Source of the DNA: Geosiphon pyriformis uo1
Taxonomy: Eukaryota; Fungi; Glomeromycota
DNA: 64,000 nucleotides
Assembly (NCBI GenBank): GCA_016748015.1
Contig: JAAOMT010000193.1
Coordinates: 350,042-414,041, forward strand
Direction of reading: 5' to 3'
Positions within the stretch are counted from its first letter, which is position 1, and every line of letters starts with the position of its first letter. A program made the position numbers and the translations under genes. Positions 3,594-61,807 of this stretch are shown piece by piece. The notes under the pieces are model-generated. The model ran no database searches and was not told where the DNA came from. It saw only the letters and a program-made list of their open reading frames with translations.

Positions 3594-4961
3594 TTATATT
3601 TTGGTGATAATAATTGGTTCTAGATCTCATGATATATTATTTAAATTGATTAATGGAATCTGTGTTTTTAGTTAAGATACAGATAATAATATCTTTTGTT
3701 TTGTATGATAAATTTTTAACCAATTTCCATGTGCTACTTTCTTTAAAATTCTGTTTTTCAATCTTAATTTGTAAGCTTTATTGCCTAAAACTTTATATAT
3801 GTGAAATAGATTATTTCACTTCAGGTCAAACTTTTCATTCCACTGTTTTTTAGTCTTTATATAATATAACAGTACTTGGTTTCCAATCTTAAATTCAATT
3901 GGTTGGTTAAGTAGATAATTATCATGTCTTTTTTTTTGTTGTTCTTGTACTTTGCTAATATTATTAACTGCTGTTCTATAATTGTTTTCTAATATTTTCA
4001 TAAGCTGATATGTTCTTTGATATAAGATGATTTCAAAATTTTCTTTGGTGATTGTTTCTATTGGAAAAGAAGATATTTTTTGTTTAATAAGTAAGATAGC
4101 TTTTCTTCTGTAGACTAATTCAAATGGTATGAATTGGGTAGTATTTTGCTTTAATGTTTGGTATGCAAATAATACAGAAGATATAAATAAATTCCATTTT
4201 TGTGCATTTTTATAACTTATTTTTGCTAATGCTTCACACAGTATTTGTTTAAATTGTTTTATTAATCCATTTGTTTATGGGTGATATAATAACAATAAGA
4301 GTTATTTTATTTCAAATTGTTGGCTTAATTTGGTTAATGTACTATTAATAAAATGTGTTTCTTAGTTGAATAACAATTCTTTTGGGTATTTATGATGACA
4401 AATTAGATTTTGGTATAAAAACTTGGTTACTGTTTTAAGATCAGCCACTTGGATTACTCTGGCTTCTGGCTATTTAATAAGATAGTCTATAGCTACAACT
4501 ATGTAATAATTTCTCTTAGATGTAATTAAGAGAGAACCAACCAAATCAATTCCTATTCTATTAAATAAATTTTCAATTGAAATGAGTCAAAGTAATTTCA
4601 TTGTTCTGGCTCCTTCTCTTTATTAATATAAGTCACAGTTGAAAACATATTTAAAAATATCTTTATATATTGTTGGCCAATAATATAGATTTGTGGTTTT
4701 TTCTAGAATAGAGTTTTTATTGAAATGTTCTGCAGTTGAATCAGAGTGCATACTGTGTAAAACAATTTCTTTTTCATTGTATTTTATAACTTGTTGTAAA
4801 GTAGTATGGTTTTGGCATTTTTAATGATATAGTTGGTTGTTGTTAATAAAATAATTATGAGCTTGTTTCTATATACTACTTTGTTTCTGTTGAGATAATA
4901 GTTTCTTAAACTGAAAAGTTGATAAATATTGGTGTAATTACTAATAGATAGTTGTATTCAT
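3594..4961 (-). pseudogene. Element A integrase, separate ORF, decayed
   Basis: ATG at 4961 (MNTTIY..LHQYL), 10 nt after the RH stop at 4974-4972; HSDSTAEHF zinc-finger part, rve core (IGIDLVGSL, QTNGLIKQF-type) and C-terminal EPIIIT. Confidence 0.85.
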
Positions 4962-4971
4962 GGATTCGAGA

Positions 4972-7900
4972 TTAAATTTGCATCATTCTTAACAAACTGT
5001 CAGCATTGGTGTTTTTGGATCTTTTCTTATAATAAACTTTGTATAAGAATTATTGCAGATAAGTATTCTATCATGCATATCTTTTTTCTTATTGTGATTT
5101 ACTAAGTAACTAAATAAGTTTTTTATGATTAGTGTATAAATCAAATAGCTATTTAAAGTAGTGTCTCCAATTTTGTATTGTTTAATAGATGATGAAACAT
5201 TCCAAATCTGTTGTGCTGTATATTTTTTTTGCTAGACTGATACTGTGACTAGCATAGACAATTGAATGCTTTTTGTTGTCTGGTTTTATTTAGAATAGGA
5301 CCACTTCTAATGCATTTTTTGAGACATCTGTTGTAACAATAAACTGTTTATTAAAGTCGAAATAGATCAATATAAGTACTATAATAAAACATTGTTTAAA
5401 ATAGTTGAATGTCTTTTGCTGATCTTTCTTTTATTTATATGACACATATTTTGACAATAGGTAGTGAGATAGTTTTGTAATATTAAAAAATCTTTTAATA
5501 AATCTGCAATAGTATTCATCCAGTTTTAAGAATCTTTTTAGTTTTTATAGGTTAGTTGGGGCTGGAAACTTTTTGACTTTTTGTACTTTGTTCAGATTAA
5601 ATTTGACTTCATTTTTGCTGATTACATGTTCTAAGAATTTCAGCTTAGTTTTTCTAAAAAAGCATTTATTAGAGTTGAGTTTTAGTCTGGCTCTCTAAAA
5701 GCATTCAAAAACTTATTAAAAGTGAAACAAGTAATTGTTAAATATTTCTGAGAACATATTAGTGTTATCTAAGTAGATTATGACTGATTTCCAAAGAATT
5801 TTTTTGTATACTACATTCATAAAATATTGGAAGATAGCAAAAGCATTACACAGTTTAAAGGACATTACATTGAATTTGAAGTTTCTGTCTTATATAATAA
5901 AGACTATTTTTTCTTTGTCTTTGGGATTTATTTTTACTTGCCAATATTTACTGGTTAGGTCTAATTATAAAAACTATTTTTTGTTGCTAAATTGTCTAAT
6001 ATTTCTTGTATAAAGGGAATAAGGTAACTATTGTTATAAGTAACACTATTTAATTTTTAGTAATTTATACAGAGCCATATTTTTCTATTTTTCTTAATAA
6101 TTAATATCACTAAAAAAAACCAAAAACTTAAAAATTTCTTGATTAATTTATGGTTTAATATTTGTTGTACTTTTTTTTAATCAAATTATCACCCATTGGA
6201 GTTATTTAATATGTCTATTGTTTAATAGAACAGACATTTTTCATATCAATCTGATGTTTTATAATGTTTGTGTATCTAAACTCATTTTTGCTAGTAAAGA
6301 TATCAGCATATTAATTTAACAGAATCTTGAATTATATTTGCTACAGAGTATTTAAGTTTTCCAAATTCAATTTATTGATTTTTTTTAGTATAAACAAGTA
6401 ACTTTCTTTTAGCAAATTCTATACTTATAAGGTAATATCACAAAATAAGAACAATTATATAAAATCTGGAATAGGCTGGGGTTTTTTAGGATTTTAAATA
6501 TTCAGAGAAATGGAATTAACAAAGATTTCTTTAGAAATTTTGATTATATCTTCAATGAAATTCCATATAAGAATTTTGAAATGTTTATAAGTTTTAATAG
6601 ATATGTATAGATTAGCAATATTGGCCAGGAAACAGATTTTCAAATTAGCTTTGAATAGTAGAGCTTGGTCTTAGATCTTTCAATTCACTTTGAAAATGTA
6701 TTGTTAATATGGAGAAATGAAGATAACTGTATCAATATAAATAAATTCTATCTTATTACTTTTTTTTTTGATGAAATTGACTGCTATATTTCCTCTTCTA
6801 CTTAATTCAAATCTTTTAATTTCTTTGATAATAAGACTTAATTCTTTGTGTATGATGACTAAAGTTAATTAGAGTATTTTTACAAAGAGTAAAAAGATAG
6901 CTTGAGCAATCTTCTCTTGTAAGTCAATTTTGTAGAGTTTATTAAAATTGTTTTGTAGCATTATGATAATGTTTTCAGTATATTTAGAATTAATGATTTC
7001 TTCTTTTACATCAATTTTTTTGGCAAAACTAGATTTGGATGCTACTTGTATCATTGTACTAACAGAAATTTTTAATGTTATTTTGAGATTTAGTTTTACT
7101 AGGAAGTGTAGAGCTATAACTACAGATAATTGTTCAGAGTATCTTAAATCAAAACCAACATTAGTTTTATGTGCTCTTTTAGAACATATTCTTTTATTAT
7201 TGTTACTATACTATTTTAATTCTAATTTTTTGGAAAGATCAAGATAAGCAAGGTACTGTTCTATTTTGATAGTCTTATCTGGCTCTTAAAATAACAGATC
7301 CTCTTTGGTGAACTCATATTTCTCTTTTGGTTTTGGTAGTTTAACAATAAGATATAGTATTCTTGAAGGTGAATTAAACATAAGATCACACTTATTACAG
7401 TATTGAAAATAGCATGAAATCAAACAATAATTGCATAATTTCATGTTGAAATCTATCAGTCTCTGTTTTTATTTCTTTTGAATTGGAGCTAATTCTTAAT
7501 AACAATCTTGGAATACTTTTGAATTATCTGTAAATAGATCATTTATTTTCTTAATGACTATTAGGATATTTTTGATGGCATGTATTTTTTTAACAGTAGT
7601 ATCTTCCTATTTAGCTAAAACTAATTCCCATATTTTTTTTTTATTGTAGAGATATATATCTAATCAGTTCATTACTTGTTAATATACAGCAATGAGCAGA
7701 GTTTTTTTCTGAGTCCAGTTATTGATTAAGATAGTATACTGACATAATTTATTATATGTTCCTCTTCTGCTAAGAACTTCATTTCATAATCTTTTGTCTA
7801 ACAGAATTTCACCACATATAAAACAGAGCATATTGTCCTATTTGTCTTGTTGTTTTAATCATTCAAATTTTTCTAATACACAAGATCAGCAATAATACTT

Positions 7901-13816: not shown

Positions 13817-14110
13817 TTTTCTGCTGTCTTTTGTTATGTTTACTCTGTCTTTATATTTTTTTTAGTTGTTTAATTTAATGTGTTGGTGTTAATAATAATG
13901 ATTGGTTTTAGATCTTGTGGAATTTCATCTGGTTAGACTAGTATTCTCTATACTTCCAATTGTAGAATATTACTAATGAATAATGATAATATATTGCAAT
14001 ATGGTTTCAGTCAATCTCCATGTGCTATTTTGGTTAAACTTTTGTTGTTCAACCTTAATTTATAAGCTTCATTTTCTAGAATTTCTTCTATGTGAAATAG
14101 TCTGTCCCAT

Positions 14111-15088
14111 TGTTACCAGACAAAATTAGAGATATTATTTAGCATGAAATTATCTTATAATTTCTATCATTAATTAGCATATCATTTCAAATTATCACTT
14201 ATTACATTAGCAAAAATGTCCAAAAATTATCATTTAATTAATAACCCAAATTGTACACAACACAAATATAACCTAATTGTAATGATCAATTATGCAATAC
14301 CCTGAACTATGTAACATTCAAAAGTTTGCCGAAATTTGTAGAAATTTGCCAAAATAATTGATAGTTCACCAAAATATCTAATAGTTTGCAGAAATAACTT
14401 GTAGTTTACCGAAATATATCTTTAGTTCAGTGAAATAGTAGAAAATAGCAAAGTTCAAGTTCATAGAATAGTGTTATGACAAGTTGTATAAAAGAAGAGC
14501 TTCTCTTTTCGAGAAAATGTATCTTACTTTAGATTTATTACTTAGAACTATTCTTACACACACAAAAAAAAATAAATATCAAATAATTCGAAAAACCAAA
14601 CTCTTTAAATTGTTGCACTTGGAAAATCCTCAAAACCCAACTAACGTTTTGAAATTGATTAGTTACCAATTTCAGTAAACTGTTAGTGACTTTAGGCCTG
14701 AATAGAAAACGTTTCTCTTGACAAAATTCTATTTCTTTTACATTTTTTTTATTTTCTTTTTATTTCCTTACTATAATCATTAGGGTAGCCTACAGACGAG
14801 ATTCCTGTAGAAGAGTTGACTTTCACAGCAAAATAACTACACATTTTTTTAATAAGCTTCCAAATGAGCATTTCCTAGGAAAGAGTTGACATTTACTACA
14901 ATGTAACTACATAAAGCAACTGGCACGGAATTGGTTATTCCACTTATAAGTCCAGCAGTTCAAATTATAGGAGATAATTTGAAGATAAATTCAGTTACTG
15001 GAGGTTCAACCACATCCAGAAAACGTGAATTCACAGCAAACAAGCATCAACAACAGTTAAAAAAAGAGACCAAAAACCTCCAGTAACA
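14111..15088 (+). repeat. Element C 5' LTR
   Basis: Matches 22954-23936; about 20-bp AGTT..C.GAAAT repeat array at about 14320-14460 and TATA-like GTATAAAAG at about 14486. Confidence 0.97.
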
Positions 15089-15090
15089 TT

Positions 15091-15106
15091 TGGTGCTCTC
15101 CCACAG
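15091..15106 (+). promoter_or_regulatory. Element C primer-binding site
   Basis: TGGTGCTCTCCCACAG, 2 nt after the LTR end. Confidence 0.85.
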
Positions 15107-15133
15107 AAACAACACAGCAAAAATAACTTCAAA

Positions 15134-18100
15134 GTGGCGACCACACCAGACACAACAACTCTAGAGTATTACCAGTCAATTTACACTCACTGCAAGCAAA
15201 AATTCAACATTCCAGGCGGAATTGAAGTTGTCAAGAAATCAGTATACTAATACATTAAAAACCGCATCAACAATTATCTTTTTGGAAATTACAATATCTC
15301 AAAAGTTAGAAGCAATCTTTACAATAATTTAGCACACTATTCACAGTTGGGAACTGAAGACTTTAACAGTGAAACATTTGCCATTTACTTTCACGAACTT
15401 AATTTTAACATTATCAAATACTGTGAAGAAACATATCCAGTACAGTCTTAATACACTATTGATTTTAAATCGGAAACAGAAACAAGCAACAAAGGCAAAA
15501 ACAAATTAAAACAATACTCAAGAACCACCCCAAATACTCCAACACTACTAAAAACAACTGCCAAACATTTACAAACACCTGAACAAGGAACCAGTTCAAA
15601 ATTTCCACTTACTATCACACCTTTTCCAGCTTTACTTGCACAAGCACAAATACCTAATTCACCCTTAAATCGATTTGTAAGACCAGAAGATTTTACATCA
15701 CTCAGAAGTCCCACCAGACAACAAGAACCCTTTCAAACTAGTTCCAATCTCCTTGATTTTCTAGCTGAAAATCAAAGTGAACACTCTGAGACAGCAGCAA
15801 ACGAAGAAAATGACTTTGAAATAACTAAAAAAGAATCAATAGACAGTGAAAACGAAGAAAACGAAATGACAACATACATCGCAAAAATCCCTAAATTTAA
15901 TGGAGAAGATATTGAGACCAGTCTCCAAAAATGGCTTGACCAAGTTATTAAAGCTGGAGATACAAATGGATGGAATGCTGCCAGAATGTTAAGAACAATT
16001 CCCTATTTTCTCAAAGGAACAGCAGGAGAATGGTTTGAAAACTTGGCTGTCCTATTCAATGATTAAAACACTTTCAAAGCAGCCTTTCTTGAACAGTTCA
16101 CCAACAATAATATCTCTATCACCCTTCGCAATTGTTTTCAAAATATCAAACAAGAACCCTCTGAATCTGTATGACTTATATTGGAAAATTCAACAAACTT
16201 CTCAGACAAATTCGCCAACTCGAAACAAACAATTATTATTCCAATGCTCAAATCTTGGATCAATTTATCACTGGTCTAAAAGATAAACTAATTAAAAAGA
16301 TTCACCCACATGTGCCAGAAGATTTAAACTCTGCCATACAGCATGTGAAAAGATACGAAATGGCCATGGAAGAGGCCAATCGCACAAAACTTGTAAATTT
16401 GGCAATTGGAGAAACCAGCTCAACAGCTGAGGAAAAAATTAACCAACTCACAAAAAAGGTTGAAAACTACTTCACCAATTAACAACAACAGCAACCCCAA
16501 AGATATCAACCACCCCAAAGACAAAATCAAAATAACTTTGCACCACTTTCCAATAACCAGCCTCAGAATTGCCATTACTATGAAATCTCTGGCCACTGGA
16601 AAAGAGATTGCAGAAAGCTACAATGAGACCAACAAAATAGGAGTAATCAATGTTACCTTCCACCACAGCAATCTTATTATCAACCACCACTACCAGCTTA
16701 CTATCCACCAAGACTCCAATACCAAAATAACTATTATCAGCTCACTCCACAGCCAATCCAACAGCAATACCAACAACCACTCACACAACATTATCAAGTA
16801 CCTGCTCAAAGACTGATTACACAAAATCAATTCACATCACAAAACCGATACCAAGTAAACAACAATAGAATCAGTTTGAACAACTAATTGGTTCTCTGAA
16901 ATTCCATTCAACTAAGACCCAACTACTACCACACTCAACCCAGTTATTTAACAATGCCAGAAGAACAGGATTTTCACCATACTGCACCCTTGGAAGGTAG
17001 AGCTGCAGCACAACAACAAAACCCTTCTTATACTCTCACCACAATCCCACCAGCCAGAATCGCTGAAAATGCTAATCTTTCAAATATATTTCCTTTTGAG
17101 TTCAAAGTAAATGAGTCACCATTCCTGCTTAGCAATGCAGCCGCCAATGAACAAAAAGCAATCACAGCTATGTATACTGAAGCAAAAGTCGAAGGAAAGA
17201 CAATTCACTTGATCCTAAACAGTGGATCCACCGGAAGCATTATTATCTACCAGTTAATGCAACAGTTGAAGAGAAATGTTGACTGACCAGCTCAAACAGT
17301 AATTGTCACTGCTGATGGCATGAAAAAGACCCCAGTAGGAGAAATTGACAATTTTCCATTCACTCTTGATGGAATTACTATTCCAGTCAAAGTTCTTATA
17401 ATGGACGCACCCCAGTACCAAGCTCTTGTCGGAAATGATTGGCTTCAAAAAGCCAATGCTAATCTGAATTGGGAAACACAAGAGTTAACAATCTCCTACC
17501 AAAGACAACACGCCCGAGTACCTGCCACTTGTGGTATATTCAACAAATGCTCTAAAAAAGCCTCAGCTTTTGAATTCGAACCGGAAGAGGAAAAACCCCT
17601 TATTAAAACATTCATGGCTTTTGAATCAACGTCCAACTGGGCCAATGAAACAGAACAAGAACATTTTACCCCACACTCTGAACCCGAAACCTCTAGATGG
17701 AATATTCCTTACTTAAAACCCAAACCAAAGAAATAACACCCCTATATTCCCCTTAAATATAAGGACTGCCACAAGAAACTATTATCAATGGGAGCCTGCA
17801 TTTCATCTGAAAAAGAATATGAAAATCATACTTGTTATTACTGCAAGGCATGCCACAGAGAATGATGGAGCCATCTAATAAAAAGGAGCAGAAAATGGGA
17901 CAACATCCCTTGTTTGACTTGTGGAGATATGCTATTGGGAGAATACAATTAGATTGATATAGCCATGAGAGGAGGAGTCTGCGATCAGACCTGCTAATAT
18001 GCTTTATCAATTTCAGAAAAAGTAACAAACTTTATTACTACTCCCATAATGCTGAGATGATTTTTGACTTAGCAATGGCATTAATTAATAGAGCTACCAA

Positions 18101-20708
18101 AGAAGATATTTGTCAAATGAAAGAAGCAGAATACATTAAATACACCATGGAATTAGCTGGATTCGATTACGAAGATAAAGTAAAAGTCTACCACCAAATT
18201 GCAAGTCACACCTACCCAATCCAAGAAGCTCAAATTCAACGATTAGAACAAATAAACATTAGGCTATGTGAAGAATGCATTATGTCTTGTGATGAACAGT
18301 GGTGTCTTGAATGCTATGCTTTTAGTATCCCCTTGCCCAGCAAAAATGATGAAAACAAAATTGAATTTGGAGAACCTGAAGCAATGGAAGAAATTGAAAC
18401 AACACCTATCTACCTTATCAAAAATTAGCCTGCCTTACAACTTAAATACTTTAACAACAACGGACATAGAATAAAATCCGAAAAAGCACATGAAATTGAT
18501 GCTGGATATGATCTAAGATATCCAGGCAAGAATACTCTTGTTCTCAAACCCAAATTCCTCACAAAAATCAACCTCAAAATTGCACTCAAAATTCTGCCAG
18601 GAGCAATAGTTCAAATTACCTCCCGGTCCTCTCTGGCAAGCAAAGGAATCAATGTCAGAGGAGGAATAATCAATGCTGGATATACTGGAGACATTACAGT
18701 GATGCTTCAAAATGAAACTGACAAACCATTTAAGATTGAACATGCTGAAAAAATTGCCCGAGCTATTTATCTACTCTTAATCAACATTTTGGGTTTGCAA
18801 CTAGTCAATCAAAGAGAACAATTAGGAAAAAGCAATAGAGGAACCCAAGGTTTTGGTTCAACTGGATAATTCACAGTTCCAGTTAATATAGCTCTTAACA
18901 CACAAAACAAATCCCACCAGATTCTCAGACTTCCACAACCAATTACCATCTCACTCTTTGGAGAACATCCAAAAATCTACACCTGCCCAAAGCCAACAAC
19001 CACACAACAAATTTTTGAGTCCAATGAACAAGTCTGCTTAAAACATAATATTTTGATCCCAAACATTTATATTCCAGAAGGAACAAAGAAAGTCCGAGTT
19101 ACTTTTTACAACTCCAATAATTACCCAATAATTTTATTAAATAATTTAGAAATTGGAGTTATTCACAGTAATATATTTCAACAAGAATTACCCCAAACAG
19201 TCCCCGATTTCTCTAAAATTATTGGATATTCACTACCAAAAATCAACCCAAACCCCAGCTCCGAAAACTACCATGTTGTCATGGAAAAACTATCTCAAAT
19301 CAACATGGGACAACTTGAACCACAACAACAGACCCAGCTCAAAGAGCTAATTGCAGAATTTGCCAATATCTTTGCTGAAAACAACAATGACTTAGGAAGA
19401 ACCAATTTGGTCCAACACCAAATTTATACAGGAGATGCCAAACCAAGAAGACAACAAGCATATTGAGTTGCTCCAGAAAGCCACCAATTCATCTGAGAAG
19501 AAGTACAACAAATGCTTAACAATGGGCTCATCCAACCCTCCATGAGTTTTTGGGCTTTACCTGTAGTGCTAGTTAAAAAGAAAAATGGAAAGATCCAATT
19601 TTGTGTTAACTATCGACAACTCAATAGTGTTACAATTGGAAACGCCTATCCTCTTCCCCGAATTGATGACATGTTAGATGCCCTTGGAAAATCCAAATAT
19701 TTTTCAACACTAGATTTAGAAAGCAGTTACTGGCAAGTTGCTATGAATCCCAAAGATTGTCCCAAAACAACATTTACCACCCAAGGCAAAAATTACAAGT
19801 TTAATGTAATGCCTTTCGGATTATGCAATGCACCAGCAACGTTTTAGAGATTAATAGATGTTGTGTACCAAGGACTTCTTTGGAAGTCAGTAGTCGTTTA
19901 TCTTGATGATACTGATGTTTATTCTCCATCATTTGAATTATACTTAAAACACCTGCAAGAAGTTTTTCAATAATTATGAAAAGCAGGACTAAAACGCAAT
20001 ATCGAAAAATGCTACTTTAGAAAAACAAGCCTGGCTTTCCTTGGTCATATTGTTAGTAAAGATAGAATCAAACCAGACTCTGGAAAAATCAGCATTGTCA
20101 AAAACTTCAAAACTCCTTGAAACACTACAGAACTAAAAGGATTCATAGGATTAGCATCCTACTATCGGAAGTTTATCAAAAGATTCTTGGAAATTACAAA
20201 ACCCCTCAACCAGCTCACCACCAAAAACGTTGAATACAAATGGACTACCAAACACCAAAAAGCTTTTGAAATTCTCAAGAAAAAACTGACAACAGCTCTA
20301 ATTCTCACCTACCCGGATTTCAGCAACCGATTTTGACTAGCTACAGATGCTTTGTATACTGCTTTTGGTGCCATTTTATCACAACTAGATGACAATGGAA
20401 ATAAGCAAGTAATTGCTTATGCTAGCAGAACATTAAAACTAGCTGAGAAAAACTACCCTGCCACAGAACTAAAAACAGCAGCTGTAATTTGGGCCCTACA
20501 CCACTTCAATCTTTATCTCAGGCCTAAAGAATTCGATATTATCACTGATAATATTGGACTCAAATGGCTTCAGAACAAAAATACTCAGCTGAATGCAAAA
20601 CAAACCCGATGGACAAGATTTCTAGTAAACTATCAATACATAGTACATCACAAACCAGGAAAACTCCACACTAATGTTGACTGTCTCTCCAAAATGAGAC
20701 AAAATTAG
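15134..20708 (+). pseudogene. Element C gag-PR-dUTPase-RT-RNase H polyprotein with point stops and small indels
   Basis: Capsid ATG at 15866; CCHC knuckle remnant CHYYEISGHWKRDC at about 16570; PR LILNSGS at about 17212; RT YPLPRIDD and YLDD (19899-19910); RH ORF 20352-20708 ending HKPGKLHTNVDCLSKMRQN*. Confidence 0.93.
18429..18866 (+). pseudogene. dUTPase domain within the element C polyprotein
   Basis: Stop-free stretch with all five trimeric-dUTPase motifs: DAGYDL, TSRSSLA, GGIINAGYTGDI, EKIARAI, RGTQGFGSTG. Confidence 0.92.
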
Positions 20709-20760
20709 AAAAACACAAAAACCAACACTCAACTTAACCAACCAAAAGAGCCAACAAACA

Positions 20761-22144
20761 ATGAATTTAAAAAACTACAACAATCTCAAGCAATATTTAG
20801 AAACATTAACAATCCCAACAGATTGGTTTCCAGATGAAAAACATTGACTACAACAATAAGCCAAACAATATTTTTTACACAACATTATTTATCATCGAAA
20901 TTTCAAAAACCCAAACAAACCACTCAGATTAATACAAGAACAGAAAAAAGAGACTATATTATACAACATACACTCAGATCCTTCATCAGCCCACTTTGGA
21001 AAAGACAGCACCACCCAAAGAACACTAGAATACTACTTTTGGCCTCAAATGAAAAAAGACATTCATGAATATGTCAAATCTTGTGATAATTGTCAAAGAA
21101 GAGGAGAAACTTGCCCTACAGAACCTTTAAATCCAATCAAAGTTGGACAGCCTTTTAACAGAGTTGGTATCAATTTAGTCGGACTACAACTTATTACAAA
21201 CCAAGGAAACCATTATATTGCAGTAGCTGTAGACTATCTCACCAAATGGCCTGAAGCCAGAGCCATTCAATGGGCAGATGCAAAATCAATAGCAAACTTC
21301 ATCTACGAAGACATCATTTGTAGACATGGATGCCCAATAGAATTTTTATCTGATCAAGAAACACATTTTGTGAACAATTTAATCCAGAAAATTTGTGGAT
21401 GATTTAATGTTAAGAGACCATTATTTTCACCTTATCATCCACAAACAAATGGACTTGTAAAATGGTTCAACAGAACATTGTGTAAATTATTAGCCAAAGT
21501 TTCAACCAATTTTGAACAAGAATGGGATTTCTTTATTTCATCAGTGTTACTAGTATATAGGACACTAAAACAAGATACCACAAAACACACACCATTTGAT
21601 TTAACTTACGGAAGGACGGCAATGTTACCAATTAGTTTCACAGTGAAAACATACCCAGCACAATCAATCAATGAAAACAATTTCCAAGAAATGCTTCAGC
21701 GAAGAGCCTACACTCTGCTTAGCACATTGGAAGGAAAACAACGAATAGCAGCCACCCATATTGAACACTTCCAAGCTCAACAAAAAGAACAGCATGATGA
21801 CAAATTGCCTCCAGTCACCAATGAATTTAAAAATTGGAAACAAAGTTCTCTTACACAGAACTAAAGCTAAAAAACAATGAAGTAGAAAATTTGAGAATAA
21901 ATGGGATAGACCATTCTTTATCCATGAAGTTTTAGGCAACGAATCATAAAAGCTAAGACTTGATGACAAAATTCTAGCAAAAATTGCACATGAAGATTGT
22001 TTGAAACACTATAATTCCAGGAACAATCCTGAACCATTAATTCTACAAATTGGTACACATTCCCCTTTAATCAATCCCAAAAACATTCCCCGAAATTTAG
22101 AACCAATAGTTGTTATTAAACAGCCTCCCAACTTGAACACTTAA
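20761..22144 (+). pseudogene. Element C integrase, free-standing ORF
   Basis: ATG at 20761 (MNLKNYNNLKQYL), 52 nt after TAG at 20708; HHCC (HSDPSSAH...CDNC), core VDYLTKWPEA / SDQETHF, decayed GPF motif (WDRPF); no chromodomain. Confidence 0.93.
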
Positions 22145-22265: not shown

Positions 22266-22985
22266 ATGACTATTCCTCAAAATATTTAACAATTATCCCA
22301 AAAACTAATGTTAGCTTTAAAAACAATACCCGAATTATCCATTACTGTTACTGGAAACCACATTAATTATATCCAAACAGAAGTAGTTACAAATTTAGCC
22401 CCATATTCACGAAAATATCACCCATATAAGAAGAACACAAGAAGTTATACTGGAATTCACCTGTCAGAACTTTTAAAGCTTGCTTTAAGAGAAAACCTAA
22501 TGCTCATTCTGATTAATATTCTACCAAATACTACAATTCAACAAAGACTTCAACTGTGTCTCAAGGAGGAAAACACTGAATATCCTCCAATCTATAGATA
22601 TTTTCACATTGGAAAAACACTCTATGAACGGAAACTGGAACTTACAACAGCAAATCTTATAAAAGAAGCTATTCAGAAACAACTCTACAATGAATTCAAG
22701 ACAACAGCTGGATCAACAAACAGTTGCTACAGGTTCAGAGCTGCTCTTAGACTTTATGATCTATTCCACACCTGTGAAAACGTACTACAAAACCCAATTT
22801 TTCAATCTTTGAAGATTCAATACATTGAAAAGCTCACAGAACTGAAATTTCAACAAATTTCAGACCAAATTTTTTCAATAATTTTGGATTATTATCTGGA
22901 AATGACAAACAGTACTTGGACTTCGACGGAGCTCAGTCTTGAGGAGGAGGTTATGTTACCAGATGAAATTAGAGATATTATTTAG
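22266..22985 (+). CDS. Element C ORF3, accessory protein of unknown function (about 239 aa; open 22308-22985)
   Basis: 225-aa open frame; an in-frame upstream ATG at 22266 is separated from it by one likely CAA>TAA stop; runs through the PPT into the LTR; homologous ORFs occur in A, B, E and G. Confidence 0.8.
22941..22953 (+). other. Element C polypurine tract
   Basis: GAGGAGGAGG-TTA directly before the 3' LTR. Confidence 0.9.
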
Positions 22986-23936
22986 CATGAAATTATCTTA
23001 TAATTTCTATCATTAATTAGCATATATTATCATTTCAAATTATTACTTATTATATTAGCAAAAATGTCCAAAAATTATCATTTAATTAATAACCCAAATT
23101 GTACACAACACAAATGTAATCTAATTGTGATGATCAATTATGCAATACCCTGAACTATGTAACATTCAAAAGTTTGCCGAAATTTGTAGAAATTTGCCGA
23201 AATAATTAATAGTTCACCAAAATATCTAATAGTTTGCAGAAATAACTTGTAATTTACCGAAATATATCTTTAGTTCAGCAAAATAGTAGAAAATAGCAAA
23301 GTTCAAGTTCATAGAATAGTGTTATAACAAGTTGTATAAAAGAAGAGCTTCTCTCTTCGAGAAAATGTATCTTACTTTAGATTTATTACTTAGAACCATT
23401 TTTACATACACAAAAAAAAATAAATATCAAATAATTCGAAAAACCAAACTCTTTAAATTGTTGCACTTGGAAAATTCTCAAAACCCAACTAACGTTTTGA
23501 AATTGATTAGCTACCAATTTCAGTAAACTGTTAGTGACTCTAGGCCTGGATAGAAAACGTTTCTCTTGACAAAATTCTATTTCTTTTACATTTTTTTTAT
23601 TTTCTTTTTATTTTCTTACTATAATCATTAGGGTAGCCTACAGACAAGATTCCTGTAGAAGAGTTGACTTTCACAGCAAAATAACTACACATTTTTTTAG
23701 TGAGCTTCCAGATGAGCATTTCCTAGGAAAGAGTTGACATTTACTACAATATAACTACATAAAGCAACTGGCACAGAATTGGCCATTCCACTTATAAGTC
23801 CAGCAGTTCAAATTATAGGAGATAATTTGAAGATAAATTCAGCTACTGGAGGTTCAACCACATCCAGAAAACGTGAATTCACAGCAAACAAGCATCAACA
23901 ACAGTTAAGAAAAGAGACCAAAAACCTCTGGTAACA
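22954..23936 (+). repeat. Element C 3' LTR
   Basis: Matches 14111-15088. Confidence 0.97.
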
Positions 23937-25144
23937 CCATTTAGGGTTAAATTTTCTATTTTATTGTTTTTTTACTTTGGTATGATGTAAAAGTAATTTG
24001 TTTCCAATCTTAAATTCAACTGGTTTATTTGGTAGTTGGTTATTGTGTCTTTCTTTTTGTTTTTTTTATGATTTTTGGATGTTATTAGCTGTTTTTTGTT
24101 GTTTGTTTTCTAGAGTTTCTATCAAGTTATATGTTTTTTTTAGCAATATTTCTTGAAAATTGTCTTCAATTATTGGTTCTGTTGGATATGTGTTGACTTT
24201 TATCTTAACTGGTAATGTTGCTGTTTTACTATATACTAATTCAAATAGTGTTGCTTATGTAGTGTCTTGCTTTATTGTCTAATAAGCAAATAGTACTAAT
24301 GATATAAACATATTTTATTCATCTTGATTTTTTTGACTGATTTTGACAATTGCTTTACACAATGTTCTGTTAAATCTTTCAATTAACCTATTTGTTTGTA
24401 GATGATATGATGATGACAATAGTCTTTTGATTCCAAATTTTTGACTTAATTCTGCTAGTGTTTTGTTTACAAAGTGAGTTTTTTGATCTGATAGTAGTTT
24501 TTTTGAACATCTGTGTTGACAAATTAGATCTTAATGAATGAATTTGGCAACAGATTCTGCATCTGCTCTTTGAATGGCTTTTGTTTTTCTCTATTTAGTG
24601 AGATAATTTATAACTACTGCAATGTATTTGTTGCTTCTGCTGGTTATGGTTAATGATCCAACTAAGTCAATTCCAATATAATCAAATGGTTGTCCTATTT
24701 TGATTGGTTTCAATGGTTTATTGGGTCTTGTTTCTTCTTTTTTCTGACAAGCATTACAATTTTGAACATATTAGATGATGTCTGGATACATTGATGGCCA
24801 ATAGTATCTTTTTCTGGTTTTTTCTATTGTTGCTTCTTTGTGAAAATGTCTTGCTGTTGGATTTGAGTACATGTTGAACAGTATTATTTTTTTTTCTAGT
24901 TCTGTAATTACTCTGGTTGGTTGATCTAAATTTCTTTTGTCCTTCTGATAAAGTATATTTTGATGGTTGATAAAATATTTTGATTGTTGTTTTATGTTGT
25001 TTTGTTCCTTTTGAGATAATTTTTCTTTGAACTGTTGAGTATTTATATAATGCTAAAATTGTTGTTATTTTTGTGTATTTATTTTTTGTTATATGTTTTT
25101 GTTTTTAACTGTTTAGATTTTGTTATATTTTTGGATTAAAATAT

Positions 25145-28100
25145 TCAGATTTGTTTTATTCACAACAAACCATCAGCATTTCTGTTTTCTTTTCTTTTTT
25201 TATAAGGTACTGTAAAAGTATATAGTAAAAGTGCTATTTTTCATCTCACATGTTGATCATCTCCAAATTTTTGCTTTTGGATTGAAGTCAATCCTTTGTG
25301 ATTGATATGCACTTCAAATTTCTGGCTTAAGTATTCCTTCTATTTCATAATAGCCTAATAAATTGCTAAGTGTTCTGATGTTCTATAGTTTTTTTTGGCT
25401 AGCATTAAACTTCAACTAACATATATTATTGGATGTTCTCTTCCATTTGGTTTTTTTTGTGATAGTACTGCTCTCAATGCTTAACCTAATGCATCAGTAG
25501 TGATTATGAATAGTTTGCTATAATCTGAATAGATCAGTACTGGAACTTAAATGAGCTTTCTTCTTAGTATGTCAAAAACTTTTTGTTGTATTTCAGTCTA
25601 TTTATATTTAACATTCTTGGTTTGTAGATAATGCAATAGTTGAGCCAATTTGGAAAAGTTTTTAATAAAGCAACAATAGTACTCTGCAAACCTTAAGAAT
25701 GCTCTTAGCTCAGTCAAATTAGTGAGTACTGGAAAGAACTTTACTACTTCAATTTTATTTGGATCTGTTTTAATGCTCTCTTTGCTTACAACATGTCCTA
25801 AAAACTTGAGTTTTGTCTTGTCAAAGAAACACTTAGTTGCATTTAGTTTCAATCCTGCTCTTCTCAGTTTTTCAAACACTTGCTGGAGATAATAAAAATG
25901 ATCATCAAATGTTTTTGAGAACACATTGGTGTTATGTAAATATATGACTAATTTCCATAGTAATCTAGTATAAACAATTTTCATTAGCCATTGAAATATG
26001 GCCAGTGCATTAGTTAAGCCAAATGGCATCACTTCAAATTCGAAATTTTCTTTTTTTGTAGTAAATACTATCTTTTTTTTATCTTCTGGATTCATGACTA
26101 CTTGCCAGTAACCATTATCTAGATTTAATGTCAAGAACCATTTTTTTTCTCTGAAAGCATCAAATAATTCTTGAATCTGTGGAGTTGAATAATTGTCTTT
26201 ATGAGTTACACCATTAAGTTTTTTGTAATCCACACAAAAGTGGATTTTTTTATTTTTCTTATGGACTAGTACCACTGATAATGACTATGGGCTCATTGAT
26301 AATTGAATTAGCCCATTGTCAAGCATTTGATTGATTTCTTGATGAATGATCTTATGACTAATAGGTGGTATTCAATATGTTTTTTGTTTGATTGGCATTG
26401 TATTTTCAGTCTTGATCTGATGTTAAATTATGTCAATTCTGCCAAACTTGTTTTTAATTGCAAAAATGTCAGTAAAGTTGTTGAGTAACTTTTTGAGTTG
26501 CATATATTAAAGTGGGTCTAAGTTTCTCATATTCATTTGTTTTAATTGTTCTGGTTGGAGCAAATAACATTTGTTCTGTTTGTAGATGGTTTGTGATGTT
26601 ATGTCAACATATTTACACAGTTGTAGAAAATCTAAAATGGAATTTGGTGGTTGGCTTTCGATTTCAATGGTTAAATATTCAATGGTGGTTTTTTCTGATA
26701 TTTTGATGATGTTTTTTATGTTGTTGTAGATGGAAATTTTGATATGACTATGGTTCTTGGCTGATATGTGTAGATTAATTAATCCAATCTTTCTTAATTC
26801 ACAAAGTATTGCTTTTGCTTCAAAAATCTGAACTTAATCCTTTACTTTTTTTTTTATGGCTTACATATACTAGTTATATAATAGAATGAAAATTGATTAA
26901 TAGGTAGAGATAATTTCTCTCTTGTCAACAATTTCTTTCTTTGTCATATTGACTGATATATCTATTCTACCCATAGATCCAAATCTACTAATCCTTTCAG
27001 CTGTAATCCTTAGTTTTTTTCTGTCTTCTACTGATATTAACTGAGCTATTTTAACCAGAAATAGGAATATTGTCTGTACTATTTTTTTATTTGGCTATAA
27101 TATAGGCCTTTTTTGAATTGTTTTGTAGTATTGCAATAATATTTTTTACATATCTTGCATTAATTATTTCTCCTCTGATATTGATTTTTTTTTTTGCTAA
27201 ACTACTTCTAAATACTAATTGAACTATTGTTGTTGCTAGAATTTCCAGTGCTACTTTGAGATCAATACAGATGCATGAATGTGGTTCTAATTTGATGACA
27301 TCTTTTTCTGAATATCTCAGATCAAACCCTATATCAGTATCATGTATGTGTTCTGGTATAATATCTTCATTATTATTACTGAACCATTTAAGTTCCTGCT
27401 TTTTGCTGAGATCAGGAAGTGCAATATATTGTTCTGGGTTTAAATTGGAGTTTAAATTGCTGTTGTTTTTATTGCCATTTTAAACAGAGCTGGAACTATT
27501 ATTTTCATCATTATCATTGTCAGAGTTTGAATCAAAATTGAATAGTGATTCCAATTCTGATATGCAGCTGCTGATTGGTTTTTCTTCTTTTGGAATTGTG
27601 TAGATTATGTGTGATAGTAAATTGTAGATGAGGTTACACTCATTACAATATTGAAAGTCACATGAAATCAAACAGTGGTTACATAATCAAGTGTTGATTT
27701 CTTCTAAGCATTGTTTCTACATTTTTCTTATGAGTGTTAAATTTTGATAGTGTTCATGAAACTCCTTTGGGCCTGTCTTTATGTCAAGAAAAGCATCTGA
27801 GTTTGGGATGAAAACGATATTAATTAGTTCTGAAGAATTATTTTTAATTTCCAAGATTTTACTGGTCATGGCTCCTTTAACTTTGGCATTTGCCATCTGT
27901 TAAATCTCATCTTCATTGTGTGGGTAACTGTCCAACTGAGAGATTGTTCAGTGCTAGACTGTAGTAATAAGAGTTCCATAACTTACCCAGTTGCTAATAA
28001 GAATTGTGTACTAACACAAAATGTTATACATTCCTCCTCAACCAAGAATGTTATTTCATATTTCTTTGTCGAGCAACTGTTCTCCACAAGCGAGATATGG

Positions 28101-40560: not shown

Positions 40561-41049
40561 ATGAAATTCAACTGCTATCTAATATATAAAACCAAATTAA
40601 GTGACTTAAATAAATACAGTTTATGCTTTTACTATATATAGTCAATTACTTAGACCAGATAAAATAACACTAAATATCTATATTAATATATGTAACTCCA
40701 CTTAAACCAGAAAAAAAAAGCACAGTTTATATCTATTAAAACTAATTACAAAAGATTTACTATATCAAGGAATTAAACTATCTTATTTGATAATATAAAT
40801 ACTATACTACAAAATAAATTTGAAATTAAATTACTATTTTTGACCAATTTAGCTTTTTCTATATTTACTTTATATTTAAATTTCATAAGTCATATCTTAA
40901 TACAATACAATTTTACTAAATGTTCTACATATTCAACAATAATAGAAACAGCTTTTATCTTTTTATTAAAAATTATGACAGTATTTTTATACTAGTTTTT
41001 TAACACAAATCTTTTGTAAATTGCCATATATAACTTTATATTTAATAAA

Positions 41050-46939: not shown

Positions 46940-48302
46940 TGATGATTATGATTGGTTCCAAATCTCATGGAATTTTATCTGGTTGGACTAGTATTCTTTG
47001 TACTTCTAATTGTGGAATATGACTGGTAGATGATAACACTATATGGTAATATAGTTTTAATTAATTACTATGTGCTACTTTGGTTAAGATTTTGTTGTTC
47101 AACTTTAATTTATAAGCTCTATTTCCTAGAATTTTTTCTATGTAAAATGGTCCATTCTATTTGAGATCAAATTTTTCATTCCATTGTTTTTTCACTTTGG
47201 TATAATATAAAAGTACTTTGTTTTCAATCTTGAATTCAACTGGTTTATTTGGTAGTTGGTTATTGTGTCTTTCTTTTTGTTTTTTTTGTGACTTTTGGAT
47301 GTTATCAGCTGCTTTTTACTATTTGTTTTCTAGTGTTTCTATTAAGTCATATGTTTTTTTTAACAATGTTTTTTGGAAATTCTCTTCTGTTATTGGTTCT
47401 GTTAAATATGTTTTGACTTTTATCTTAACTGGTAATATTGCTGTTCTACTATATACTAATTTAAATAGTGTTGCTTGTGTAATGTCTTGCTTCATTGTCC
47501 TGTAAGCAAATAATATTAATGATATGAACAAATCTCATTTGTTCTGGTTTTTTTGGCTGATCTTGGCAATTGCTTTACACAATGTTCTGTTAAATTTTTC
47601 AACTAACCCATTTGTTTGTGGATAGTATGGTAATGATAATAGTCTTTTTATCCCAAATCTTTGACTTAATTCTGTCAATGTTCTATTTACAAAGTGAGTT
47701 TCTTGATTTGATAATAGTTCTTTTGGACATCTGTATTAACAGATCAAATCTTAATAAATAAATTTGGCAACAAATTCTGCATCTGCTCTTTGAATGGCTT
47801 TTGCTTCTAACCATTTTGTGAGATAATTCATGACTATTGCAATATATCTGTTGCTTCTGTTGGTGATTGTTAATGGTTTGATTAAGTCAATTCCAATGTG
47901 ATTGAATGGTTGTCTTATTTTGATTGGTCTTAATAATTCATTGGGTTTTGTTCCTTCTCTCCTTTGACAAGCATTACAATTTTTAATATATTGGATGATA
48001 TCTGGATATATTGATGGCTAATAGTATTTTTTTCTAATTTTTTCTATGGTTGCTTCTTTATGAAAATGTTCTGCTGTTGGATTTGAATACATGTTGAATA
48101 ATATTGTCTCTTTTTCTGATTCTGTAATTACTCTTGTTGATTGATCTGGATTTTTTTTGTTTTTTTGATAAAGCATATTTTAATAGTTAATAAAATATTT
48201 TGATTGTTGTTTTATGTTGTTTTGTTTTTTTTGAGATAATTTCTCCTTAAACAATTGAGTATTTATATAATGTTAGAGTTGTTAGTATTTTTGTATATTC
48301 AT
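46940..48302 (-). pseudogene. Element E integrase, separate ORF
   Basis: ATG at 48302 (MNIQKY), 31 nt after RH stop TAA at 48336-48334; rve core and GPF motif remnants. Confidence 0.88.
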
Positions 48303-48333
48303 CTTTTTGTTATATTTTTGGGTTGAAATGTTT

Positions 48334-51300
48334 TTAGATTTGTCTTATTCGCAACAAACCATCAGCATTTCTGTTTTTTTTTCCTTTTTTGTAATGTACT
48401 GTATAATTAAATAGTAAAAGTTTTATTTTCTATCTAGCATGATGATCATCTCCAAATTTTTGCTTCTGAATTAAAGTCAATTCTTTGTGATCAGTATATA
48501 TATTAAACTTTTGACTCAAATATTCTTTCTATTTGATGACAGCCCAATAAATAGCTAAGTATTCTAGTGCTAAAATTCCATAGTTTTTTTCAGCTGGACT
48601 TAAGCTTCTGCTGGCATAAGCTATTAGGTGTTCTTATCTATTCAGTTTTTTCTGAGATAGTACTACTTCCAATGCTTGACCTAACACATCTGTTGTAATT
48701 ATGAATGGTTTGTTGTGATCTGGATAAATTAATACTGAGACTTGAATAAGCTTTTTTCTCAGTGTTTTGAAAGCTTTTTGTTAAGTTTCAGTTCATTCAT
48801 ATTCGGTGTTCTTTGTTTGGAGTTGGTGTAATAGTTGAGCTATTTTGGAAAAGTCTTTGATAAAATGGCAGTAATATCTTACAAATCCCAAAATGCTTAT
48901 AATTCAGTCAAGTTGATGAGTACTGGAAAGTTCTTGACTATTTCAATTTTGTCTGAATCTGTTTTGATTCCATTTTTGCTTACAACATATCCCAAGAATT
49001 TTAATTTTGTTTTGCCAAAGAAGCATTTGTTGGCATTTAACTTTAGTTCTGCTCTTCTTAGTCTTTCAAATACTTGTTAAAGATGATGCAAATGATCATC
49101 AAATGTCTTAGAGAACACATTGGTGTTATCTAAATACATGACAACTGATTTCTATAGCAGTCTGATATAAACAATTTCCATAAGTCATTGAAATATAGCA
49201 AAAACATTTATCAAACCAAATGGCATAACTTCAAATTTGAAATTTTCTTCTTGAGTTGTAAAAGCCATTTTTTTTTATCTTCTGGTTTTATGACTACTTA
49301 CCAGTAACCACTATCTAAGTCTAATGTTAAGAACTATTTGTTTCCTCCAAAAGCATCAAACAGTTTTTGGATCTTTGGAGTCGGGTAGCTATCTCTTTTT
49401 GTTACTCCATTTAGCTTTTGGTAATCCACACAAAAGTGAATTTTCTCATTTTTCTTACAGACTAATATCACTAATAATGACTATAGACTTATTGATAACT
49501 GAATTAGCCCATTGTCAAACATCCAATTGATTTCTTGACAAATGATTTTATGGCTGACTGGTGGTATTTGGTATGCTCTTTGTTTGATTGGCATCATATC
49601 TCCAGTTTTTATCTTATGCTGGATTATGTTGGCTCTGCCAAATTTGTTTTTACTGGCAAAGATGTTATTGAAATTGTTGAGTAACATTTTAAGCTACATA
49701 TGTTATAGTAAGTTTATATTTCCCAAATTCATCTGTTCTAATTGTTTTGGTTGGAGCAGATAACATTCTTCTTATCTGTATATTGTTTAAGATGTAATAT
49801 CTACATATCTACACAATTGTGGAAAGTCTGGAATAATGTTTGGCAGTTGGTCTTTAATTTCAGTGGTTAAATATCCAAGATGATTCCTTCTGGTATCTTG
49901 ATGATGTTTTTTGTGTTGTTATAAATAGAAATTTTAATGTAACTATAGTTCTTGGCTGGTATGTGTAGATTAACTAATCTGATTTTTCCTGATTCACAAA
50001 GTGTTGCTTCTGCCTTAAAAATTTGGACCTAATCCTTTACTTTTCTTTCTATGATTACCATGTATTGGTTATATGGTGAAATAGAAATTAATTAATGAGT
50101 GGAAATAATTTCTCCTTTGTTAACAATTTTTTTCTCTGCCATATTAATTAGTATATCTATTTTACTTATGGATCCAAAACCCTGTATTTCTTTAGCTGTA
50201 ATTCCTAATTTTTCTCTGTTTCCTACTGATACTAATTGAGCTATTTTGATCAGAGGCAGAAATATTGCCTGTGCTATCTTTTTATTTGGTTCTATAATGT
50301 ATGCTTTTTCTAAGTCATTTTGTAGCATTGCAATAATATTTCCTACATATTCTGCATCAATTATTCCTCCTCTGATGTTGATTCTATTTTTTGCTAAACT
50401 ACTTTTGAATGCTAATTAAACTATTGTTGTTGTTGAGATTTCTAATACTACTTTGAGATCAATGCAGGTGCATAAATGTGGCTTTTATTTAATGGCATTT
50501 TTTTCTAAATATCTCAGATCAAATCTTATATCAGTATCATGTGCACGTTTTGGCATAATATTTTCATCATTATCACTGAATCATTTTAGTTTCTGCTCCT
50601 TGAAGAGATCAGAAAGCACAATATATGTTTTGGGATTTGCATTGGAGTCCAAATCATTGTTATTTTTGTTGCCATATTAAGCAGAACTGGAATCATTGTT
50701 TTCATTGTCATCATTGTCGGAGTTTAAATTGGGATTAAAAGTTGATTCTAATTCTGATGTGCAGCTGTTGATTGGTTTCTTTTTCTCTAGGATCATGTAG
50801 ATCATGCATAGTAGTGAATTGTAAATAAGGTTACACTCATTACAATATTGGAAGTTACAGAGAATCAAACAATAGTCACATAGTTGTGTGTTTATTTCTT
50901 CCAACCATTGCTTTTGTTCTTCTTAAGTGAATGCTAATTCTTGGTAATGCTCATAAAATTGTTCTAGGTCTATAGGCTTTAGGATAGTATCTGAGTTTGG
51001 GCTCTAGTCAAGTTTTATGAATTCTGGTAAGTTGTTTTTGATCATCCTTATTTCTTCTGCTAACACTTCTTTGATTTTGGCAAGTGCTATTAATCAGATT
51101 TTGTCATTGTTGTATAGACAACTGTCCAGATGTTTTACTGCTCTTTTCCAGACAGCTTCTATGAAAGTCCTTTTTCTTATCCAGTTATTGATTAGAATTG
51201 TGTATTGGCACAATTTGTCACAAGTTTTTTCTTATCCAGGAATGTTATTCCATATTTCTTTGTCTAATAGAGTTTCTTCACAAGTAAGACAAGATTTGTT

Positions 51301-61743: not shown

Positions 61744-61807
61744 CAGTACAATCTCTTAAACCAAACCAACTTAATTATTAGTAATTCCTTCATAAACAAA
61801 CACGATA

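What the first reader, a model, noticed from the sequence alone, without database searches (positions are those of the whole stretch)
20690..20800. Integrase is cut loose from Pol: conserved stop after RNase H, then a fresh ATG, in five copies
Seen: RH ends a few codons after the N-A-D-x-L-S-R-like motif (A MMQI*, B IKQI*, C MRQN*, E IRQI*, G LTIQ*). IN starts at an aligned Met (MNTTIY, [ATA]NTQK, MNLKNY, MNIQKY, MDLDNY). Spacers are 10, 62, 52, 31 and 64 nt. None is a multiple of 3, so reverting the stop would not restore a fusion. The same break position in different families argues against random decay. Four of five spacers put IN in the +1 frame, which is open across the stop in A, C and E, so a +1 shifty-stop frameshift is the alternative to reinitiation. 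C's spacer is an unstructured CAA-rich run.
Basis: seen in the sequence. Interest (0 to 1): 0.85.

Follow-up and report, generated by a model that had tools for sequence, protein, structure and literature searches.

The report
Retrotransposons with a free-standing integrase gene
These are dead copies of a large family of Gypsy retrotransposons, related to those of soil fungi, whose integrase is its own gene with its own start codon instead of the tail of the Pol polyprotein, and it is likely made by ribosomes that restart after the Pol stop codon.

Summary
Confirmed, and lineage-wide rather than decay. All five window copies stop 3-4 codons after the last RNase H motif. Spacers are 10, 62, 52, 31 and 64 nt (four families; B and E are one). 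Intact relatives keep the split: 35 of 35 metagenome junctions, 89 of 89 called Pol proteins of the RT clade lack integrase, and 94 of the 120 best integrases start with Met-Asp/Glu/Asn 67-72 residues before the zinc finger. The +1 frameshift idea fails: spacers run from -11 to 727 nt in all frames (9/11/15), and the integrase frame is closed in 5 of 5 intact +1 spacers. Termination-reinitiation fits best (about 0.6, not shown): stop/start overlaps occur, short spacers lack AUG (3 against 15.5 expected) while the end of Pol does not, and Kozak context is strong. A subgenomic RNA or internal entry remains possible; no RNA run was available. New here: one sub-lineage has a covarying RNA structure, absent from Rfam, just before the integrase AUG (12 hits, all there). 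This scan noted the split before in other genomes; my ten paper searches found no description.

The parts
14111..15088 (+). 5' LTR of element C (TG...CA); 4-bp target-site duplication at 14107-14110; primer-binding-site-like TGG at 15091
   Evidence: 96% identical to the 3' LTR; ends and TSD read from sequence
15090..17950 (+). Decayed gag, zinc knuckle and protease region of element C (approximate limits)
   Evidence: motifs read by eye in the three-frame translation; the four ORF pieces scanned had no Pfam hit
17958..20708 (+). Decayed Pol of element C: dUTPase, Spuma_A9PTase-like stretch, RT, RNase H; ends at the conserved TAG 20706-20708
   Evidence: Pfam dUTPase 5.6e-21, Spuma_A9PTase 9.5e-06, RT_RNaseH 3e-29; one frame with 9 decay stops read as X
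20709..20760 (+). Pol-integrase spacer of C: 52 nt, A/C-rich, no ATG, no predicted structure
   Evidence: related copies in run X1 diverge from this copy right behind position 20707 (loose ends)
20761..22144 (+). Integrase cistron of C from its own ATG: N-terminal helix region, HHCC, core, C-terminal domain; decayed (internal stops, one frame change near 21850)
   Evidence: Integrase_H2C2 3.7e-19, rve 3.5e-06; start matches the conserved Met of stand-alone integrases
22266..22985 (+). ORF3 of C: extra helical protein gene that runs through the polypurine tract into the LTR
   Evidence: 30% identical to ORF3 of L010, pairwise E 9e-20; only weakly like the ~145-aa ORF3 family of other loci (probability 4%, E 0.0098); no Pfam hit
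22954..23936 (+). 3' LTR of C, preceded by a polypurine tract (22941-22950) and followed by the TSD (23937-23940)
4959..4974 (-). Copy A junction: TAA, 10-nt spacer, ATG
25080..25147 (-). Copy B junction: TGA, 62-nt spacer, ATA at the Met position (G>A decay inferred)
48300..48336 (-). Copy E junction: TAA, 31-nt spacer, ATG; same family as B
61741..61810 (+). Copy G junction: TGA, 64-nt spacer, ATG; integrase frame closed by stops in the spacer

Best explanation
These are decayed copies of a Gypsy LTR retrotransposon lineage in which Pol ends after RNase H and integrase is a separate gene with its own start codon, likely translated by ribosomes that restart after the Pol stop on the same RNA. 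Shown: the conserved stop, the conserved Met, free spacer length and frame, stop/start overlaps, AUG-poor short spacers, strong start context. Inferred: after termination the small subunit stays on the RNA and takes the first AUG at or after the stop, by slipping back a few bases in overlap types or scanning an AUG-free, often A/C-rich spacer such as C's. That would give free integrase at a small fraction of Pol, with no protease cut to release it. Integrase would then have to enter the particle, or meet the cDNA, without a Gag-Pol tether. One sub-lineage adds a structured RNA element just before the AUG, which is predicted to recruit or hold the ribosome or to regulate the restart. The window copies lack that element.
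For: Split: 35 of 35 junctions with a located upstream stop, in 80 metagenome loci, are unfused. All 89 ORF-called Pol proteins in the 109-row RT clade (SH 98) lack integrase; 79 of the 87 with the motif end within 45 residues of it. Of the 120 best stand-alone integrases, 78 start with Met exactly 71 residues before the first His. All 94 with offsets 67-72 have Asp/Glu/Asn second, the pattern of NatB-acetylated true N-termini (recalled knowledge). Reinitiation: 8 of 35 junctions overlap (-1 TAATG x2, -4 ATGA x2, -8 x3, -11 x1). The integrase ATG is the first ATG at or after the stop in 29 of 35. Spacers of 20-199 nt hold 3 ATG against 15.5 expected from dinucleotide shuffles (22 spacers, 0 of 500 shuffles as low); 3' non-coding controls hold 78 against 80.8. 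The last 150 nt of Pol are not depleted (82 against 75.1), so the AUG-free zone begins at the stop. Start context: purine at -3 in 33 of 39 and G at +4 in 32 of 39, against 151 and 73 of 232 internal Met codons. Precedents: UAAUG coupling in the fungal hypovirus CHV1 (PMC2699510, abstract) and in SART1 (PMC10275272, passages).
Against: No expression data. Three long spacers (278, 365, 727 nt) are not AUG-depleted (22 against 21.3) and do not suit simple scanning; three short ones hold one ATG each. Reinitiation after long ORFs usually needs an upstream RNA element (PMC10275272, passages), and none was found: no 5-mer clearly stands out among 158 tested (best nominal p 0.0075), TGGGA is in 0 of 23, and folding z at the end of Pol averages -0.05. 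AUG depletion and Kozak context would also fit a subgenomic RNA starting in the spacer. GTA is depleted in the short spacers too (8 against 16.7), so part of the signal may be compositional or splice-donor avoidance. +4 G may reflect selection on the second residue. Metagenome loci have no host assignment and are related, so they are not independent.
Confidence: 0.6

Rival explanations
1. Integrase is made from its own subgenomic mRNA: an internal promoter starting near the Pol stop, or a spliced RNA joining the leader to an acceptor just before the AUG (env-like or foamy-virus-Pol-like expression; the analogy is recalled).
For: An AUG-free zone and good Kozak context fit a 5' leader. The three long, AUG-rich spacers need something other than scanning. 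Some spacers are U-rich, like introns (L009, L016, L042).
Against: 10 of 23 RNase-H-type junctions have no YAG in the AUG-free stretch, and YAG positions are scattered elsewhere. Overlap junctions would put the 5' end or acceptor inside conserved RNase H codons. The AUG-free zone starts at the stop whatever the spacer length.
Confidence: 0.22
2. Integrase is translated by internal ribosome entry, independent of Pol termination, at least in the sub-lineage with the structured RNA element; that element could instead be a nuclease-blocking RNA that leaves an integrase-leading decay fragment.
For: A covarying two-helix element lies just before the AUG (loop start 20-32 nt upstream): 96% of cells paired, 7 of 11 pairs with two-sided changes. 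The model finds 12 hits at E<0.001, all at that position, including L056 and L018, which were not in the model.
Against: It is small (about 45 nt), weak (consensus -9.8 kcal/mol) and confined to one sub-clade. It is absent from the window and most loci. C's and E's spacers have no predicted structure.
Confidence: 0.12
3. A programmed +1 frameshift or stop readthrough makes a Pol-integrase fusion.
For: 4 of 5 window spacers are +1 and that frame is open in A, C and E. 4 of the in-frame intact spacers (L010, L012, L025, L032) have only the Pol stop.
Against: Frames 0/+1/+2 = 9/11/15 in 35 junctions. The integrase frame is closed in 5 of 5 intact positive +1 spacers. Near-identical L012 and L047 differ by 1 nt, 63 against 64, and B and E differ in frame. 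A conserved Met-Asp/Glu/Asn start with Kozak context would be pointless in a fusion.
Confidence: 0.03
4. An intron removes the stop and restores a normal Pol-integrase polyprotein, as NCBI gene models suggest.
For: Four close NCBI gene models join RT-RH to integrase sequence: P0122, P0123, P0270, P0277.
Against: Each model joins at a different place, and each drops the last RNase H motif (NxxAD) and the integrase's first residues. No conserved donor appears in the RNase H end codons and no conserved acceptor. These look like gene-prediction artefacts.
Confidence: 0.03

Closest known systems
Canonical Ty3/Gypsy (Metaviridae) LTR retrotransposons, nearest to the YPYY-bearing Athila/Tat-related group
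   Same: LTRs with TG...CA ends, TSD, PBS and PPT; order gag-PR-RT-RH-IN; HHCC-core-C-terminal-domain integrase. In the IQ-TREE integrase tree the split integrases fall in one group (99/97) with plant elements that I take to be Athila/Tat-like (label recalled; one search names only the plant hosts), Ginger-like proteins and fused P0273/P0126, as described for YPYY integrases in PMC2836005 (passages).
   Different: Integrase is normally a domain of the pol polyprotein (PMC3248453, PMC5911963; passages). Here it is a separate ORF with its own AUG, usually followed by a further ORF, and some members carry other cistrons between Pol and integrase.
Ginger1 DNA transposons (stand-alone Gypsy-like integrase; PMC2836005)
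   Same: A free-standing integrase-type protein of about 400 aa that begins with the region upstream of the zinc finger; related in the integrase tree.
   Different: Ginger1 has terminal inverted repeats, no RT and a C-terminal protease domain. These elements have LTRs, gag and RT-RH. FastTree puts the Ginger-like rows outside the split clade; IQ-TREE leaves it unresolved.
Termination-reinitiation in CHV1 hypovirus, HvV190S and the non-LTR element SART1
   Same: Stop/start overlaps (TAATG, ATGA) between a long upstream ORF and a downstream ORF; CHV1 shows 2.5-4.4% reinitiation in a fungus (PMC2699510, abstract).
   Different: Those have fixed overlaps and a needed RNA element near the stop (PMC10275272, passages). 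Here spacing is free from -11 to hundreds of nt, no shared upstream element was found, and the downstream product is an LTR-element integrase.

Membership tests
Ty3/Gypsy LTR retrotransposon | Paired LTRs with TG...CA ends, TSD, PBS, PPT | tested here: met
   Element C: 96% identical LTRs, 4-bp TSD, PBS-like TGG, PPT
Ty3/Gypsy LTR retrotransposon | Domain order gag-PR-RT-RH-IN with Gypsy-type domains | tested here: met
   Pfam hits along C and G; intact loci L015, L037; best RT-RH and IN hits are Gypsy-type
Ty3/Gypsy LTR retrotransposon | Integrase encoded within the Pol polyprotein | tested here: not met
   0 of 35 junctions fused; 0 of 89 ORF-called clade Pols carry integrase. Filed as a variant of the superfamily, not a canonical member.
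Ginger1 DNA transposon | Terminal inverted repeats, no RT | tested here: not met
   Integrase lies inside LTR-bounded elements downstream of RT-RH
Programmed frameshift/readthrough site | Conserved frame and open downstream frame across the stop | tested here: not met
   Frames 9/11/15; integrase frame closed in 5 of 5 intact positive +1 spacers
Termination-reinitiation (coupled translation) | Downstream AUG is the first at or near the upstream stop | tested here: met
   29 of 35 junctions; 8 overlaps
Termination-reinitiation (coupled translation) | Cis RNA element upstream of the stop (TURBS-like or pseudoknot) | tested here: inconclusive
   No shared 5-mer or folding signal in 23 Pol ends; family-specific elements are not excluded; a structured element lies downstream of the stop in one sub-clade
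Termination-reinitiation (coupled translation) | Downstream output depends on upstream translation and no subgenomic RNA exists | not testable with these tools
   Needs reporters and RNA data

The most novel reading that the evidence does not exclude
A whole lineage of LTR retrotransposons has become operon-like. One genomic RNA carries gag, pol, integrase and accessory genes as separate cistrons read by successive restarts, a new structured RNA element drives the integrase start, and integrase works as a free transposase-like protein. That would make the lineage a living intermediate between Gypsy elements and Ginger1 DNA transposons.
Probability: 0.25. Interest if true: 0.9.

Novelty: new variant of a known kind. 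Interest (0 to 1): 0.72.

Why it matters
In the LTR retrotransposons described in the papers I read, integrase is part of Pol, which is how it is thought to be packaged and dosed. A successful lineage with free integrase needs another way to translate it from a eukaryotic RNA after a 1.5-4.5 kb ORF and another way to bring it to the cDNA. The natural series of spacers (overlaps to hundreds of nt) and the covarying RNA element are ready-made reporter inserts for studying reinitiation after long ORFs. The layout also offers a route between Gypsy integrases and Ginger1 transposases. In practice, these elements are mis-annotated in mycorrhizal fungal genomes as spliced fusions or as separate 'DDE transposase' genes, and they would be scored as broken.

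Tried and rejected
Own genome: none held, so no in-genome census. Sequencing runs: no RNA holder listed. One DNA holder, X1, may be the window's own source. It laid 6,649 pieces on the region, listed no variant at the stop and G>A at the ATG in about 3% of depth, but these tables are filtered and cut, so this is weak. IMG/VR gave 8 distant loci, not analysed further. The motif pattern had 0 matches in viral and prokaryote contigs. Rfam at E<=10 on 16 loci gave 6 weak hits, none at the motif. ORF3 model (pLDDT 91.6): no Foldseek match at E<=0.001, best VIA Z 4.3, so the idea that ORF3 is a reinitiation transactivator has no support. The viral fold library and the protein atlas did not complete. 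Random decay, frameshift/readthrough and a stop-removing intron were rejected (see rivals). Capture of a Ginger transposase is not favoured by FastTree but not excluded. Single origin: 72 of 73 split integrases form one clade in FastTree (SH 96); IQ-TREE on 52 rows does not resolve it and does not reject it (p-AU 0.283). In the RT tree 5 split loci (L031, L064, L061, L069, L058) lie outside the 109-row clade. Rows dropped before junction counts: L047 (near-copy of L012), L022 (near-copy of L023), L050/L070/L082 (no stop located or decayed), loci starting inside or just before integrase, and fused or integrase-first outgroup loci. Literature: searches found no description of a separate integrase ORF in Gypsy elements. 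Repbase, GyDB entries, subscription journals and supplements were not seen, and any of them may hold one.
Full report
OBSERVATION. The window is an AT-rich field of decayed LTR retrotransposons. B has ATA where the others have ATG. B and E are one family (82% identical; other pairs 51-60%), so there are four independent families. Decay stops make up only 1.6-2.6% of Pol codons in C, B and G. Element C is complete in outline: 96% identical LTRs, a 4-bp target duplication, gag, protease, dUTPase, RT, RNase H, then integrase from ATG 20761, then a third ORF and the polypurine tract. The host is not known; the nearest named relatives are from Rhizophagus and Cetraspora.

THE SPLIT IS THE NORMAL STATE OF THE LINEAGE. 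C's integrase found 1,146 proteins of 201-643 residues. Of the best 120, 78 begin with Met exactly 71 residues before the first zinc-finger His, and all 94 with offsets 67-72 have Asp, Glu or Asn second. That is the pattern of NatB-acetylated N-termini (recalled), which fits a real start. The search for longer proteins gave 80 hits; only three scored like close relatives (297-348 bits; the rest 213 or less). All three are NCBI gene models without the last RNase H motif. The RT-RH search and a FastTree tree of 194 rows gave a 109-row clade (SH 98) that holds C. All 89 ORF-called Pol proteins in it lack integrase, 79 of the 87 with the motif end within 45 residues of it, and 8 carry a longer tail. 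The three integrase-bearing rows in the clade are gene models, each joined at a different place. A truly fused relative (P0273) lies just outside. Of 80 metagenome loci, 35 gave a junction with a located upstream stop, and none is fused. In DNA run X1, which may be the window's own source, many related copies diverge from C right behind the stop (weak evidence).

NOT A FRAMESHIFT. Spacers run from -11 to 727 nt and fall in frames 0/+1/+2 as 9/11/15. All five intact positive-length +1 spacers have stops in the integrase frame. Near-identical L012 and L047 have 63 and 64 nt. C's nearest intact relative in the RT tree, L010, has 24 nt. C's open frame follows from a spacer with 6% T.

HOW INTEGRASE IS LIKELY MADE. 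Eight of 35 junctions overlap stop and start (two TAATG, two ATGA, three at -8, one at -11). In 29 of 35 the integrase ATG is the first ATG at or after the stop. The 22 spacers of 20-199 nt hold 3 ATG where dinucleotide shuffles give 15.5, whereas 3' non-coding controls hold 78 against 80.8 and the last 150 nt of Pol hold 82 out-of-frame ATG against 75.1. The AUG-free zone therefore begins at the stop. Start context is strong (purine at -3 in 33 of 39, G at +4 in 32 of 39; internal Met 151 and 73 of 232). This is what ribosomes restarting from the stop would select for, as shown for UAAUG in the fungal virus CHV1 (PMC2699510, abstract and outline seen) and for SART1 (PMC10275272, passages seen). 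Against it: three long spacers are not AUG-poor (22 against 21.3); GTA is also depleted in short spacers (8 against 16.7); no shared upstream element was found; and a subgenomic RNA starting in the spacer would give similar signals, although 10 of 23 junctions have no YAG acceptor in the AUG-free stretch. No expression data could be examined. I put reinitiation at 0.6, subgenomic RNA at 0.22 and internal entry at 0.12.

A STRUCTURED RNA BEFORE THE START. In one sub-clade the spacer ends in a conserved element of about 45 nt: a short outer helix, an 11-nt purine-rich bulge (GAAAGCNAAAG), a 6-bp inner helix and an 8-nt loop (CANNGUGA). On 9 sequences, 96% of cells pair and 7 of 11 pairs change on both sides, above 500 of 500 shuffles for pairing and above all slid controls (the sequences are related and the structure was derived from them). 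A covariance model found 12 hits at E<0.001 in 365,520 bases, all just upstream of an integrase ATG. They include L056 and L018, which were not in the model, and L023, a near-copy of a training row. There was none in the window. L056 swaps a pair that was invariant in the training set for another standard pair. Rfam has no match. In the 8 motif loci with upstream sequence, the upstream ORF ends in an acidic and Cys/His-rich tail, shown in L023 to be the end of Pol; shared ancestry alone could explain this. The element's role is inferred from its position only.

WIDER ARCHITECTURE. The elements look polycistronic. A conserved helical ORF3 follows integrase, sometimes overlapping its stop (L014 -4, L016 -8), with no known fold. 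L030 chains three ORFs by two ATGA overlaps, one of them an Mrr-like nuclease (Pfam 5.3e-09).

ORIGIN. FastTree groups 72 of 73 split integrases (SH 96) beside fused integrases, with Ginger-like proteins further out. That suggests fission of an ordinary Pol. IQ-TREE on 52 rows places all of them in one group with the fused relatives and Ginger-like rows (99/97) but does not resolve it; one origin is not rejected (p-AU 0.283). This matches the YPYY-bearing Athila/Tat/Ginger1 grouping in PMC2836005 (passages seen); I did not score the YPYY motif formally.

WHAT IS KNOWN. Integrase is described as a Pol domain in fungal and yeast LTR elements (PMC3248453, PMC5911963; passages). The two mycorrhizal TE surveys do not contain the word integrase in their main text (PMC11952901, PMC11075540; term search; supplements not seen). 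'Separate ORFs' in PMC2582038 and PMC5911963, as seen in passages, does not concern a split integrase; PMC11943222 and 10.64898/2026.05.21.726589 (passages) are unrelated. Ten searches found no description; Repbase and closed journals were not searchable. Two earlier notes of this scan report the same layout in other genomes; I had reached my reading before opening them.

VERDICT. A real, conserved departure from the Gag-Pol plan in a large Gypsy lineage: a new variant of a known kind. The split is near certain (about 0.97); the mechanism is inferred (0.6). Interest 0.72.

Noticed in passing
L013:572-626, L014, L016, L018, L022/L023, L026, L033, L038, L042, L051, L056 (just upstream of the integrase ATG): Conserved covarying RNA structure, not in Rfam, found only at this position.
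   Followed up: yes
L023:3449-4441; proteins P0257, P0286, P0288, P0293, P0310, P0312: Pol continues after RNase H into an acidic stretch and a Cys/His-rich putative zinc-binding domain; no Pfam hit for L023's; it accompanies the RNA element.
   Followed up: partly
window 22266-22985; L009, L010, L013, L014, L016 and others: A third ORF after integrase, ending at or across the polypurine tract; all-helical, confident model, no known fold.
   Followed up: partly
L030:3-2436; also L039, L050, L057: Extra cistrons just upstream of integrase, chained by ATGA overlaps in L030: an Mrr-like nuclease (Pfam) and an ORF that looks by eye like a nucleoside kinase (no Pfam hit).
   Followed up: partly
window 18483-18866 and 27090-27479; P0245, P0268, P0290, P0297; P0274, P0278, P0289: dUTPase inside Pol of window elements and some relatives; other relatives carry a NUDIX domain (PF00293) instead.
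   Followed up: no
L015, L031, L037, L046, L023: The gag-pol junction also varies: overlapping in the -1 frame (L015, L031), in-frame stop (L037), or one ORF (L023).
   Followed up: no
L073, L087: Outgroup elements with integrase upstream of RT (Gmr1-like order; label recalled).
   Followed up: no
window 40900-46200 (+) and 55400-57300: Further LTR-element fragments related to B and E, inserted in the opposite orientation, with no RH-IN junction detected.
   Followed up: no
window 56012-56086 and 63866-64000: 12-nt tandem repeats inside the LTRs of element G.
   Followed up: no
window 38256-39407: An inverted-repeat element (arms up to 89% complementary) of higher GC inside very AT-rich DNA.
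   Followed up: no
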